63,052 nucleotides of DNA from an uncultured Leucothrix sp. (GTDB lineage Bacteria > Pseudomonadota > Gammaproteobacteria > Thiotrichales > Thiotrichaceae), in NCBI GenBank assembly GCA_937923375.1, contig CALAJG010000197.1:1-63052 (forward strand). The letters are read 5' to 3'. Made by a program: the position numbers and the translations under genes. The notes beneath the pieces are model-generated. The model made no database searches. It had not been told where the DNA came from and worked only from the letters and a program-made list of their open reading frames with translations. Below, piece after piece: positions 4,663 to 43,378 of this stretch (the stretch's first letter is position 1; each line of letters opens with the position of its first letter).

Positions 4663-6714
4663 ATGAATAGAACAATTAAATTATCGGTTTCTAGCGTACT
4701 ACTTGCTGGCCTAGTCTCAGGATGTAGCCAACAGCAGTTCCAAGGTGGCGGTCAACAAATCGCTGGAGGCTCTCAGGTTGCTGGCGGCCAACAGATCTTC
4801 GGAGGTGGACAACAAGTCGCTGGAGGCCAACAGATTGTAGGTGGAGGACAGTCAGCTGGTGGGCAACAAGTTGCGGGCGGCCAGCAAGTACTTGGTGGTC
4901 AGCAGCGTGCAGGTGGTGGTGTTGATGCACAGATTCATAGCACACTTGTTCCTGGAGGCCATGACACACAAATTCAAGACAGGCTTATACCAAACACATC
5001 ACACCTTCATGATGCGGCGGCACAAAGCAATGAGCACTCTCATAATGTTGAACCACAACAGCGTGTTTATGTTCCTCTGCCAGAGGCTATGAAAGAAAAG
5101 CCTCCTGCAGTCTTCATGTATGAACAACCAAAACAAGCTGAACCAGTTTATTATGACAATGAGAGAGCAGCCGAACCTGTCTACTATGAGCAGGCTGCGC
5201 AACAAATACGCAGGCCAGCGATGCCTAAGCAGAAACCTGTTGTGCGTCATAAGGGTATCGGTATGCCCCCTGCACAGCCAGGTCAATGCTTTGCCAAAGT
5301 CAATACGCCTGCCAAGTTTAAGAATGTTGTAAAGCGGGTTCAGGTAAGCCCAGCCGTTAACAAGCGTGTCAAAGTTCGTGGCCCACAATATACGTGGGTT
5401 AGTAAAAAGGTCTTAGCCAGACCTGCAACGCACCGCAATCAGTACATACCTGCTCAATACCGCAATGTAACTAAGAAGGTACTTGTTAAGCCTGCTCATT
5501 ATGCATGGCAGAAAAACAAGACGGGGCCTGTTACACGCATTGACCATATGACAGGTGAGATTCTTTGCCGCGTGAAGATACCTGCAGTCTATCGCACGGT
5601 GACACAAAAAGTTCTTGTTCGCCCGGCACAACGTATTAAGCGCAATATACCAGCAGTTTATCGTACGATTAAACAAAAGAAGCTAGCTTCACCTGCTGTT
5701 TATCGAACGATTAAAACGCCAGCCAGGTTCGTCAATAAAACCTATCGCGTTCAAACCAGCGGACCCCGCCAGCAATGGAAGCGGATTGTTTGTAAGACGC
5801 CTACAGCTCAAAGGGCTAGAGTACAGCAACGCCCACAACCTGTTGTTCGTAAGCATGTACCTGCAAGAGTTTCCGCTGAGCAGCGTCAATTGGCGATTGA
5901 GTTTAATCGCCAACAACAGATGTTGCACCAGCAATGGCTTCAACAGGAAGCTCAACGTAAGAGACAAGCTAGCAGGCCTGCACCACAGAGACGCCAGCAT
6001 GTGACACAACAACGCCACGTTCAGCCACGTCAGGTTCAGCAACACAGAGGCCAGCATAATCAAGCGCAAATTCAGGCAAACCAGCAGCGCCGTGCACAAC
6101 ATGCAGCTAGAGAAAGGCAGCGTTTAGCCAGACTGGCTCAACAGCGCAAACTAGCCCAACAAGCACGCTTACGTGAGGTTCAGATTGCTAAGCAAAGACG
6201 CATGGCGCAGCACCAGGCTAATTTATTGGCTCAACGCAAAGCAGCTCAAATGCGTAAGCTAAACGCACCTCAGCCGTCATATGCAAAACCAAAAGTACGT
6301 CGGCCAGCTCAGGTAAGGCATACACCAAAGCCACGCCAGCATCAGGTTAACCGTGCGCAGCTAGCACCAAAAGTTCGCCCGTATCAGCAGCAAAGAATTA
6401 ATGCTGCTAAACAGCGAACTCAAGTTCAAAACGTCTCACATTCTCCTAAGCCAAGAGTGCAACAGCAAAGGGTACAGCAACAAAACCGCGTGGTTCAGCA
6501 AAACACTGCTAATGACAACACGCCACTAACTCGCGCTAATGCTGTTTTTAGAATTCAAAAAGCACTACTTCAGCGTGGATTCAACCCTGGGCCTGTGGAC
6601 GGAAAACTGGGTCCAGCAACGGTTAAAGCATTAACTGCATTTCAGGAAACTAAGGGGTTAAAAACCGGAACCCTGAACCGAGACACACTACGTGCACTCA
6701 GTTTAGTAAACTAG
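4663..6714 (+). CDS. Repeat-rich lipoprotein with C-terminal peptidoglycan-binding (PG_binding_1) domain
   Basis: Lipobox LVSG-C21; GGQQ(V/I)x repeats; PA(V/Q)Y(R/K)T(V/I) repeats; Q/R-rich helical region; C-terminal IQKALLQRGFNPGPVDGKLGPATVKALTAFQ. Confidence 0.8.
   Translation: MNRTIKLSVSSVLLAGLVSGCSQQQFQGGGQQIAGGSQVAGGQQIFGGGQQVAGGQQIVGGGQSAGGQQVAGGQQVLGGQQRAGGGVDAQIHSTLVPGGHDTQIQDRLIPNTSHLHDAAAQSNEHSHNVEPQQRVYVPLPEAMKEKPPAVFMYEQPKQAEPVYYDNERAAEPVYYEQAAQQIRRPAMPKQKPVVRHKGIGMPPAQPGQCFAKVNTPAKFKNVVKRVQVSPAVNKRVKVRGPQYTWVSKKVLARPATHRNQYIPAQYRNVTKKVLVKPAHYAWQKNKTGPVTRIDHMTGEILCRVKIPAVYRTVTQKVLVRPAQRIKRNIPAVYRTIKQKKLASPAVYRTIKTPARFVNKTYRVQTSGPRQQWKRIVCKTPTAQRARVQQRPQPVVRKHVPARVSAEQRQLAIEFNRQQQMLHQQWLQQEAQRKRQASRPAPQRRQHVTQQRHVQPRQVQQHRGQHNQAQIQANQQRRAQHAARERQRLARLAQQRKLAQQARLREVQIAKQRRMAQHQANLLAQRKAAQMRKLNAPQPSYAKPKVRRPAQVRHTPKPRQHQVNRAQLAPKVRPYQQQRINAAKQRTQVQNVSHSPKPRVQQQRVQQQNRVVQQNTANDNTPLTRANAVFRIQKALLQRGFNPGPVDGKLGPATVKALTAFQETKGLKTGTLNRDTLRALSLVN
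4744..4920 (+). repeat. About 9 tandem Gly/Gln hexa- to heptapeptide coding repeats (G)GGQQ(V/I)x
   Basis: GGGQQIA GGSQVA GGQQIF GGGQQVA GGQQIV GGGQSA GGQQVA GGQQVL GGQQRA GGG, with synonymous codon variation between units. Confidence 0.9.
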
Positions 6715-29493: not shown

Positions 29494-29700
29494 ACAAAAT
29501 CTCTTTTTAAAGTCAGTAATAGATTATAGCCCCCCCCTAAGCCTTTCATCGAGCTAATTAACGACATTAATCAGGTGCTGTGCAGACACTATTCAGCTTC
29601 AATTCAGTTCCGCGCCCAAACGGCTACTTTCGTCCCTTTAGTCATACAATTTTTTTATGGACAGCTGTAAAACTGTAATCACGACTAAGGCAACGGTTAC

Positions 29701-30213
29701 ATGGGAGTTTCCAGTATGAGCGCAACAGTTGATTTCAACGAATTTCAGGAAGAAGTTCCAACACTAGGCAGTACACGCTACAGTGACGTTCATATCTTAT
29801 CCACTAGAGGCAGAGTAGGTAGGTTTGAATATTTTTTTTACTCTTTAGTTTTACCCTTTCTGGTATTTTGGATTATTGCTGCATTGGCGGGTATTTCTAG
29901 TCACTTCGGGGAACTTGGTGGCGCTATTGCCTACGTACTACTCGCGGCTGCCTTTTGCGCGGCCCTAATCATCCATGTCCAATTAACCGTACAGCGTTGT
30001 CATGATTTCAACGCCAGTGGTTGGCTAGCAATCTTGATTATTCTGCCACTTGCAAGCATTTTGTTTTGGTTAATTCCTGGAAATAAAGATAACAACCGCT
30101 TTGGCTTCCCTCCACGCCCCCCCAGCTCATTACTGAGAAAAGGAGTCGCCTTACTACTGCTCATCTTAGTTGCTATTATTACGTTTCTAGCACTCAAGTA
30201 TTCAGGAATGTAG
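29701..30213 (+). CDS. DUF805 membrane protein
   Basis: GRVGRFEYF, VQRCHDFNASGW, PGNKDNNRFG. Confidence 0.88.
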   Translation: MGVSSMSATVDFNEFQEEVPTLGSTRYSDVHILSTRGRVGRFEYFFYSLVLPFLVFWIIAALAGISSHFGELGGAIAYVLLAAAFCAALIIHVQLTVQRCHDFNASGWLAILIILPLASILFWLIPGNKDNNRFGFPPRPPSSLLRKGVALLLLILVAIITFLALKYSGM

Positions 30214-42706: not shown

Positions 42707-42839
42707 GAACAAAAAACATAAATCGAACAGTTCTGAATAAATATTAACGAAACCCATAAGCTATTGTTTTAAATAATATTTTTATAATTAAATTTTATTA
42801 AAACTCGAATGTTAGAGATTACTTAATAACGTTCAGGTT

Positions 42840-43177
42840 GGATTAAGCCAATTTCACTTAATCTGATTACGTCTTCAAGGTGAGCTGCTTTTCTCGGGGT
42901 TTGTGGTAGTAGCTCTACTTGTTTACGGATTTGATATTAAAAATAAATACTACGCTGTTAATGACACTCAACAGCATATCACAAATCGTAGGCACGTTGA
43001 TGACATTCAAGCTAATGCTCTTAATCGACAATGATTGGGGAGTCGGTTTGCTGGTAGCAAGAACTTGAAAAGGTAGTCAGGAATTTACGGGGGTATAGTT
43101 CTGACACTCAGATCTTAACGGATTTGTTATGCGCCTTACTTTTTAAAGGCGAGCTTTCTTTAAAGCTCGCCTTTTTT
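42840..43177 (+). ncRNA. Candidate ~340-nt structured non-coding RNA of unknown family
   Basis: Long-range stem 42863-42879/43064-43080 encloses several hairpins; G-U pairs favour the + strand; GACA recurs in loops; ends in a strong terminator. 5' end uncertain. Confidence 0.6.
43145..43177 (+). terminator. Intrinsic terminator
   Basis: AAAGGCGAGCTTT-CTTT-AAAGCTCGCCTTTTTT. Confidence 0.92.
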
Positions 43178-43285
43178 ATTGGCTTTTATCGACAATTTCA
43201 AAAAATTCAATGATTTGAACCAGATTGACTTGATTAGCACTTACTTAGGGCATATATATAGATTTGATAATTTAAGGATTTTCTT

Positions 43286-43378
43286 ATGCCAAAAGCCATG
43301 CAAAGAGCAATCGGATTTTTTTTGCTATCGGCCACCGTTGGACTCGTATCATTTCAAGCATTTCTTCATGTGCTTTAA
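43286..43378 (+). CDS. Unannotated 30-aa single-TM small protein
   Basis: AAGGA 7 nt before the ATG; MPKAMQRAIGFFLLSATVGLVSFQAFLHVL*; stop codon overlaps the TAAGGAG SD of the next gene. Confidence 0.65.
   Translation: MPKAMQRAIGFFLLSATVGLVSFQAFLHVL

What the first reader, a model, noticed from the sequence alone, without database searches (positions are those of the whole stretch)
42840..43177. Candidate novel ~340-nt multi-stem ncRNA displaying repeated GACA loops
Seen by manual pairing: hairpin GATTAAG/CTTAATC (42841-42863); long-range closing stem CTGATTAC..TTCAAG (42863-42879) with CTTGAA..GTAGTCAG (43064-43080); inside it GAGCTGCT/AGTAGCTC (42882-42915), a bulged arm 42921-42937/42976-42993 capped by GCTGTT/AACAGC, TTGA/TCAA (42997-43010), GCTCTTAATC/GATTGGGGAGT (43017-43043) and TTGCT/AGCAA; then further hairpins and a strong terminator. 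Three consecutive loops contain GACA (42963, 43002, 43027) and a fourth GACA lies at 43103. TGACACTCA and ACGGATTTG each occur twice. Many G-U pairs work only on the + strand. It matches no RNA family I recognise. Inference: a protein-sponge RNA analogous to CsrB but with a different loop code, or a multi-seed regulatory RNA.
Basis: partly seen in the sequence, partly recalled or inferred. Interest (0 to 1): 0.8.

Follow-up and report, generated by a model that had tools for sequence, protein, structure and literature searches.

The report
Multi-armed RNA sponge of sulfur bacteria
This is a conserved non-coding RNA of about 310 bases, absent from Rfam and found across one family of filamentous sulfur bacteria, whose loops are complementary to a second conserved small RNA and, in several genera, to the hfq message, so it likely works as a stress-induced sponge and regulator of the cell's small-RNA network.

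Summary
The RNA is real; the GACA code is not. A covariance model finds it in 96 of 107 Thiotrichaceae genomes (8 of 8 genera), nearly always once, with strong compensatory changes. There is no Rfam match and no real hit in 149 other families. It has its own predicted promoter (a PhoP-type direct repeat plus -10, start near 42871) and terminator (end near 43182). Contigs of 8 RNA runs lie on this stretch.

Only one GACA (inside the loop UGACACUC) is a conserved loop. The conserved elements are GGGGUUUGUGGU, ACACUC, AUUGGGGA and an A-rich bulge.

AUUGGGGA is the exact complement of the invariant loop UCCCCAAU of a second family-wide sRNA beside yihA (sX13/Spot 42 locus class; 99 of 107 genomes). 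One genome carries three copies of each. GGGUUUGUGGU matches the hfq leader over 11 nt in 10 of 34 genomes, but only weakly in this one.

Best reading: a stand-alone sponge plus mRNA regulator working like RosA, RsaI or CrfA, but a new family. No pairing is shown experimentally. Three look-ups of this scan's earlier findings returned nothing on this RNA.

The parts
42831..42847 (+). Direct repeat RTTMAG-N5-RTTMAK, a PhoP-type regulator box (predicted)
   Evidence: Present at 72 of 73 model hits, the miss being cut by a contig end; profile of 71 sites; matches the P. aeruginosa PhoP consensus quoted in PMC7916210 and PMC3156716
42859..42864 (+). -10 hexamer TAATCT (predicted)
   Evidence: T 69/71, A 70/71, T 69/71 at a fixed 11 nt after the box
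42871..43182 (+). The non-coding RNA, about 310 nt (start inferred from the promoter, end from the terminator)
   Evidence: Conservation. RNA-run contigs cover 42884-43182, one ends at 43182, none covers 42802-42883
42871..43004 (+). Domain closed by helix P1 (42871-42878 with 42997-43004), enclosing P2 and P3
   Evidence: 70 of 72 cells paired in same-genus homologs; 7 of 9 pairs with a change on both sides family-wide
42882..42915 (+). Hairpin P2; loop GGGGUUUGUGGU (42896-42907), predicted seed for the hfq leader
   Evidence: Stem: 6 of 6 pairs compensatory. GGGGTTTG in 37 of 39 RNAs. hfq complement
42939..42948 (+). A-rich internal loop AAAAAUAAAU, likely Hfq distal-face site (inference)
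   Evidence: Unpaired probability 0.92-0.99; an AAnAA[A/T]AA-type tract in 63 of 73 hits (the hits were preselected for ATAA)
42954..42975 (+). Hairpin P3 (upper stem); loop AAUGACACUC, conserved core ACACUC, target unresolved
   Evidence: 6 of 6 pairs compensatory; ACACTC in 36 of 39
43023..43048 (+). Hairpin P5; loop motif AUUGGGGA (43034-43041), exact complement of the partner sRNA loop UCCCCAAU
   Evidence: ATTGGGG(A/G) motif in 73 of 73 hits, not part of the search pattern; AU-to-GC compensatory pair between two genera; pairing
43076..43105 (+). Hairpin P6; loop ACGGGGGU (43087-43094), complementary to the partner's CCCCC loop
   Evidence: Stem fully exchanged between two genera with pairing kept; 5-G loop in 43 of 73 hits
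43145..43180 (+). Intrinsic terminator hairpin and U tract
   Evidence: compensatory changes; U tract only on the + strand in homologs

Best explanation
It is a stand-alone, family-wide small RNA that likely acts by base-pairing through several hairpin loops: as a predicted sponge for a C-rich small RNA encoded beside yihA, and as a predicted regulator of mRNAs including hfq. SHOWN: conserved sequence and structure, a conserved promoter box and terminator, presence in RNA libraries, and the complementarities. INFERRED steps: (1) a PhoP-like regulator binds the direct repeat and switches the gene on under envelope or divalent-cation stress; (2) Hfq binds the A-rich bulge; (3) loop P5 (AUUGGGGA), a mimic of G-rich ribosome-binding sites, kisses loop 2 (UCCCCAAU) of the partner sRNA, and P6 kisses its CCCCC terminator loop, which would free the partner's mRNA targets; (4) loop P2 pairs with a CA-rich element about 10-25 nt upstream of the hfq Shine-Dalgarno and likely lowers hfq translation; (5) loop P3 (ACACUC) likely targets GAGUGU ribosome-binding sites.
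For: Family-wide, mostly single copy: 96 of 107 genomes with model R1, plus 1 of 5 retested misses with R2. Covariation: 16 of 21 pairs on a MAFFT alignment and 19 of 21 on a model-fitted one, 0 of 500 shuffles reaching these. Own promoter and terminator; neighbours differ between genera; three tandem copies in G068 each have a promoter.

Partner sRNA in 99 of 107 genomes, TCCCCAAT in 39 of 40 copies. A Watson-Crick run of 8 nt or more between the RNA and partner loop 2 in 38 of 39 RNAs. Loop-level null: 20 of 20000 shuffles reach the 9 nt seen here. In genera g2 and g4 the P6 loop pairs with partner loop 3 over 10-12 nt (0 of 60 shuffles in 6 of 7 genomes). G068 is the only genome with three partner copies and also has three copies of this RNA. 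Partner relatives in other families end the loop differently (TCCCCAAT in 0 of 12 viewed). TTGGGGA occurs at 9 of 1957 own-genome start regions versus 0 for its complement.

hfq leaders: ACCACAAACCC exact in 10 of 34 and ACCACAA in 20 of 34, against 0 of 1901 own-genome leaders with 9 nt or more and 44 of 1901 with 7 or more. Of 17 OmpR-type regulators examined in G005, only the PhoP-like one has the box upstream. Hfq is present in 34 of 35 genomes.
Against: No pairing, binding or regulation was measured. An 8-nt match somewhere between two whole molecules is common in shuffles (11-43 of 60 for the genomes with an 8-nt match); if the C-run is kept, 640 of 20000 shuffles reach 9 nt. P5 and loop 2 are both invariant, so there is no compensatory change between them. 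Genera g3 and g6 lack the 5-G loop although their partner has loop 3, and G041 and G046 lost partner loop 3 but keep P6.

In this genome the hfq match is weak (-9.8 kcal/mol; 1224 of 1868 leaders score as well or better), and it is weak in g5, where P2 variants do not track hfq variants. Single-sequence folding buries P5 in this genome's copy (unpaired 0.07-0.30); local folds leave at least 6 of 8 motif bases open in 24 of 39 RNAs.

The PhoP-like gene is not in this 65%-complete assembly and scores below the NCBIfam PhoP cut-off. No P3 target conserved across genera was found.
Confidence: 0.6

Rival explanations
1. An ordinary multi-seed sRNA that targets only mRNAs. The match to the partner sRNA would be a by-product of G-rich seeds meeting C-rich seeds.
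For: The hfq-leader complement is the longest conserved match outside g2/g4's P6. GAGTGTCA sits at plausible start regions of several genes (9 of 20 candidate starts). GGGG/CCCC matches are compositionally easy.
Against: The match falls on the invariant apical loops of both RNAs; it extends to 10-12 nt in g2/g4; both genes are triplicated in G068. The best own-genome mRNA partners of P5 and P6 scored only -15 to -17 kcal/mol (their conservation was not tested).
Confidence: 0.18
2. A protein decoy: it titrates Hfq (CrcZ-like, through the A-rich bulge), CsrA, or an unknown GGGG-binding protein.
For: csrA is present in 5 of 5 genomes, while no CsrB family RNA was found in 5 of 5 of a partly different set. 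Repeated GGGG loops, an A-rich tract, and presence in many RNA libraries.
Against: GGA counts are 2-9, median 3, in about 300 nt. There is one A-rich tract, not several. Each loop keeps different flanking bases that match specific RNAs, which a single-protein code does not predict.
Confidence: 0.14
3. A cis-acting leader or riboswitch for the downstream xpaC-telA membrane-stress operon.
For: xpaC follows on the same strand in g1, g2, g4 and some g3, g5 and g6 genomes; the element ends in a terminator.
Against: Different or convergent neighbours in g7, g8, most g5 and most g6 loci viewed; tandem self-contained copies in G068; 200 nt of poorly conserved spacer before xpaC; no RNA contig joins it to xpaC.
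Confidence: 0.05
4. The mRNA of a 35-aa peptide.
For: An open frame from the AUG at 42961 in the window and 3 of 9 homologs.
Against: Frameshifted in 6 of 9 homologs; AUG present in only 10 of 39 family members; a stop after 3 codons in G014.
Confidence: 0.02

Closest known systems
RosA of Bacillus subtilis (PMC8216469, passages read)
   Same: Stand-alone sRNA with several GGGG regions that pair with C-rich regions of other sRNAs (RoxS, FsrA); controlled by a transcription factor.
   Different: Firmicutes, repressed by CcpA, thought to be a pure sponge. This RNA is gammaproteobacterial, has a PhoP-type box, covarying hairpins and extra mRNA-directed loops. No Rfam family match; no direct alignment to RosA was run.
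RsaI (RsaOG) of Staphylococcus aureus (as described in PMC8216469, passage)
   Same: Dual RNA: G-rich regions bind C-rich sRNAs and a separate region binds mRNAs.
   Different: Its mRNA seed is C-rich, it is CcpA-regulated and confined to Staphylococcus; here the predicted mRNA seeds are G/U-rich and ACACUC.
CrfA of Caulobacter crescentus (PMC12559287, abstract and section 7 read)
   Same: Hfq-dependent sponge whose G/A-rich stem-loop pairs with the C-rich core of a conserved sRNA family.
   Different: One loop against four alphaR8 paralogues, induced by carbon starvation; here several loops match several loops of one partner plus hfq mRNA.
sX13 of Xanthomonas and the polA-locus sRNAs (PMC3771888, passages read) - closest to the PARTNER
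   Same: The partner has three stem-loops with C-rich apical loops and lies beside yihA; its relatives lie between polA and yihA (7 of 12 viewed); one relative scores as Rfam anti-hemB RF02837. sX13 represses hfq.
   Different: The two family partner loci scanned at gathering score and the own locus scanned at E<=1 match no Rfam family. No sponge for this class turned up in one search.
CsrB/RsmZ and CrcZ protein decoys (features recalled)
   Same: Size, own promoter under a two-component regulator, multiple hairpin loops.
   Different: No GGA repeats, a single A-rich tract, no Rfam match.

Membership tests
Any Rfam 15 family | Score at or above the family's gathering threshold | tested here: not met
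   0 hits in the window; 0 in 7 homolog loci, one from each of the other 7 genera
CsrB/RsmZ | Many GGA motifs in loops (recalled) | tested here: not met
   2-9 GGA per RNA, median 3
CsrB/RsmZ | CsrA binding | not testable with these tools
   csrA present in 5 of 5 genomes
CrcZ-type Hfq decoy | Several AAnAAnAA tracts (recalled) | tested here: not met
   One A-rich tract per RNA in the alignments
6S, RNase P, tmRNA | Being the genome's copy of that RNA | tested here: not met
   Found elsewhere: 6S in 4 of 5, RNase P in 5 of 5, tmRNA in 4 of 5 genomes
Stand-alone sRNA sponge (functional class of RosA, RsaI, CrfA) | Own promoter and terminator, non-coding | tested here: met
   Sequence-level only; RNA contigs
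Stand-alone sRNA sponge (functional class of RosA, RsaI, CrfA) | Exposed region complementary to the seed of a co-occurring sRNA | tested here: met
   exposure is predicted and is weaker in this genome's copy
Stand-alone sRNA sponge (functional class of RosA, RsaI, CrfA) | Compensatory co-evolution with the partner | tested here: inconclusive
   P5 and loop 2 invariant; P6/loop 3 extended in g2 and g4 but uncoupled in g3, g6, G041, G046
Stand-alone sRNA sponge (functional class of RosA, RsaI, CrfA) | Pairing in vivo lowers the partner's level or activity | not testable with these tools
   Needs genetics or RIL-seq
PhoP regulon | GTTCAG-N5-RTTCAG box and a PhoP-like regulator with the same box upstream | tested here: met
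   A box-like match lies upstream of the regulator in 5 of 6 genomes, some AT-rich and weak. Binding untested; regulator not in the own assembly

The most novel reading that the evidence does not exclude
One PhoP-induced RNA reprograms the Hfq network on three levels at once. It docks loop to loop on all three C-rich loops of the polA-yihA class sRNA (the sX13/Spot 42 locus), represses hfq translation with a separate GU-rich loop, and occupies Hfq with its A-rich bulge. It would be a modular 'master sponge' whose arms are gained and lost by lineage.
Probability: 0.3. Interest if true: 0.8.

Novelty: new variant of a known kind. Interest (0 to 1): 0.63.

Why it matters
Known sponges were found by interactome experiments in model organisms. 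Here comparative genomics alone yields a sponge-partner pair conserved across a whole family, with exact base pairs to mutate. If right, it would be an antagonist of the widespread C-rich sRNA class at the polA-yihA locus (search 114 found none described) and would link PhoP signalling to Hfq dosage. It also adds two RNA families missing from Rfam, in a family whose record titles include type strains of Thiothrix, Thiolinea, Thiofilum and Leucothrix. The same logic, reading the complement of an invariant loop, can be used to look for sponges in other families that carry the partner class.

Tried and rejected
GACA code, 5' hairpin, long-range closing stem and 35-aa ORF: rejected. A 5'-to-3' closing helix suggested was dropped once the 5' arm proved to be the promoter box. 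Divergent 6S, RNase P, tmRNA: rejected. T-box, MetR-box and sigma-54 ideas: recalled resemblances, dropped on reading the family alignments, not tested further.

A short own-genome sRNA candidate (C37, loop ACAAACCCC) as the P2 partner: found by pattern in 0 of 4 same-genus genomes, 8 of 61 overall, near control level. Enrichment of loop complements at own-genome start codons: none. Conserved P3 target: none across genera among 54 loci read; one exported-protein leader is shared by two same-genus genomes. Box plus TCCCCAAT within 70 nt: 6 of 107 genomes, essentially one genus.

Outside the family: model R2 gave one weak hit in 149 families, in apparently coding sequence that lacks the motifs. 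Of 95 pattern loci, 70 scored with R2, and the named phyla outside Gammaproteobacteria did not. Absence of RNA contigs on flanking genes is not evidence, since runs were chosen for holding this stretch and come from relatives. In one search two helices (P1, upper P3) were entered one base off and redone. One search's hfq scan caught 23 of 34 loci, so the counts are taken from the listing. The g8 rows of the genus matrix lost P6 by trimming. crc was not found beside pyrE in the own genome and was not searched otherwise.

Full report
SETTING. The element lies between a neutral zinc metallopeptidase gene (ends 42623) and an xpaC-telA-SPFH operon (starts 43389). The genome is 65% complete. Record titles of the loci that score with the model name Thiothrix, Thiolinea, Thiofilum, Leucothrix, Cocleimonas and Thiotrichaceae, or only a higher rank. 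Rfam has no match at gathering score.

CONSERVATION. DNA search found the stretch at 78-89% identity in 6 of 7 same-genus genomes and as fragments in two other genera. A covariance model of the 138-nt core, built from two genera, hit 96 of 107 family genomes in 8 of 8 genera, nearly always once. A broader model recovered 1 of 5 retested misses. In 149 genomes of other families of the class it gave one weak hit (E 0.04) in apparently coding sequence without the motifs; this is one genome per family, so 'not found in those searched'. A pattern scan of all GTDB species gave 95 loci, 70 of which scored with the model.

STRUCTURE. Helices P1, P2 and upper P3 show changes on both sides in 16 of 21 pairs on a MAFFT alignment of 32 sequences and 19 of 21 on a model-fitted alignment of 68 distinct sequences. 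No shuffle of 500 reached these values, and slid controls fell to 19-48% paired; relatedness inflates such tests. P5, P6 and the terminator covary between the two closest genera. Folding energy alone is weak without the terminator (z -1.3). The conserved single-stranded parts are GGGGUUUG (37 of 39 full-length RNAs), ACACUC (36 of 39), UUGGGGA (38 of 39) and one A-rich bulge; a 5-G loop is present in 43 of 73 hits.

GENE BOUNDARIES. Upstream of 72 of 73 hits is RTTMAG-N5-RTTMAK, followed after 11 nt by TAnnnT. The repeat equals the P. aeruginosa PhoP consensus (passages of PMC7916210 and PMC3156716). Of 17 of 18 OmpR-type regulators examined in G005 (one 1043-aa frame left out), only one has the box within 1.1 kb upstream. 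Its best NCBIfam hit is PhoP, below the cut-off. It is conserved in 5 of 5 other genera tested, with a long membrane-protein gene behind it, likely the sensor kinase, and a box-like match in 4 of 5. It is missing from the own assembly.

TRANSCRIPTION. Twenty-four RNA or probable RNA runs from 15 studies hold part of the stretch. I laid 8 runs from 7 studies. Contigs span 42884-43182, one ends at 43182, and none covers 42802-42883. Two short partial matches lie upstream and one separate contig lies at 43217-43367. Contigs give no strand or level, and the runs were chosen for this stretch, so this is a weak hint.

THE PARTNER sRNA. Following the promoter box through the own genome led to an intergenic RNA convergent with yihA (C108:5526-5675, minus strand). 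It has three hairpins with loops UAAGCCC, UGUCCCCAAU and CCCCC, occurs in 99 of 107 family genomes and matches no Rfam family. The box lies before it in the 5 g1 loci and in 1 of the 19 other loci where the partner was read beside yihA. Weaker hits occur in 16 of 148 other-family genomes, leaving out G145, which is unpublished and on which no claim rests. Of 12 viewed, 7 lie between polA and yihA, the locus described for sX13, Spot 42 and alphaR7 (PMC3771888, passages).

PAIRING WITH THE PARTNER. Loop P5 is the exact complement of partner loop 2: 8-9 Watson-Crick pairs in 38 of 39 RNAs, 9 in this genome. Shuffling the partner loops reaches 9 in 20 of 20000 trials, or 640 of 20000 if the C-run is kept. 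Whole-molecule shuffles often reach 8, so the weight comes from position on two invariant loops, not from length. In g2 and g4 the P6 hairpin pairs with partner loop 3 over 10-12 nt. One g7 RNA and the third G068 copy carry GGGCUUA, the complement of loop 1. G068 has three copies of both RNAs; G063 has two copies of this RNA and one partner, at 8% contamination. Against tight co-evolution: g3 and g6 lack the 5-G loop, and G041 and G046 lost partner loop 3. TTGGGGA sits at 9 of 1957 predicted own-genome start regions and its complement at none, as expected if P5 mimics the partner's targets. A second, genus-level sRNA candidate with the box and TCCCCAAT exists in 5 g1 genomes.

THE hfq LEADER. 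Because sX13 represses hfq, I read hfq leaders. They carry ACCACAAACCC, the 11-nt complement of loop P2, in 10 of 34 genomes (g2, g4, g6) and ACCACAA in 20 of 34 (one leader truncated). Among 1901 own-genome leaders, none reaches 9 nt and 44 reach 7; that background comes from a different genome than the best matches. In this genome the site is degenerate and ranks no better than background, and g5 variants do not co-vary. A CA-rich leader element could also be kept for another reason, such as a translational enhancer. For P3, GAGUGUCA occupies the ribosome-binding region of scattered genes, several with apparent signal peptides, but no target is shared across genera.

VERDICT. Shown: a new, covarying, family-wide ncRNA gene with a conserved promoter and terminator, and conserved complementarity to a co-occurring sRNA and, in several genera, to hfq mRNA. 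Inferred: PhoP control, Hfq binding, sponging and hfq repression (0.6). It works like RosA, RsaI and CrfA (PMC8216469 passages; PMC12559287 abstract and section 7) but matches no curated family. Searches returned no paper on this RNA by their listings; the library lacks most subscription journals, and supplementary motif tables of comparative screens were not read and could list it. Score 0.63: a new RNA family with a specific, testable network role, within a known functional class.

Noticed in passing
L212 / G000:C108:5526-5675 (-), beside yihA: A second sRNA family missing from Rfam, about 140 nt, three hairpins with C-rich loops, in 99 of 107 family genomes; positional relative of sX13 and Spot 42; one distant relative scores as Rfam anti-hemB.
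   Followed up: yes
L213 / G000:C117:2652-2788 (-), upstream of an ampD-like gene: A shorter sRNA candidate with the PhoP-type box, TCCCCAAT and a terminator, conserved in 5 genomes of the own genus.
   Followed up: partly
L257 / G000:C37, about 4750-4825 (+): Short sRNA candidate: CCUCCUC, a hairpin with loop ACAAACCCC (complement of P2) and a terminator; not found by pattern in 4 same-genus genomes.
   Followed up: partly
window 29591-29607 (+): A strong PhoP-type box about 110 nt before a 170-aa membrane protein gene (29701-30213), divergent from nagZ. Other boxes lie before csrA, dnaA, a phosphoribulokinase-like gene and a transporter gene in the own genome (names from reading the translations).
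   Followed up: partly
window 42757-42769: TAAGCTATTGTTT resembles an IHF site (consensus recalled) and recurs at similar distance in several homologs.
   Followed up: no
L085 / G068:C296 and L306-L307: Three tandem copies of the RNA, each with its own box and terminator; the third has a variant P2 loop complementary to partner loop 1. The same genome has three partner copies, and hfq was not found in its 81%-complete assembly.
   Followed up: partly
L214 / G000:C60:13625-13655 and L369 / G000:C188:3516-3565: mRNA leaders with an A-rich tract followed by GAGUGUCA just before the AUG, complementary to loop P3; the C188 leader is conserved in G005.
   Followed up: partly
window 43286-43378 (+): A 30-aa hydrophobic ORF before xpaC; a similar start recurs in homolog loci L003, L005 and L082, and one RNA contig covers 43217-43367.
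   Followed up: no
G085, G012, G096, G094 (genus g6): A second, divergent hfq paralogue in 4 of 4 g6 genomes searched.
   Followed up: no
G000, G005, G101, G017, G011: No CsrB-family RNA in 5 of 5 genomes although csrA is present in the family; the CsrA antagonist here is unidentified.
   Followed up: partly
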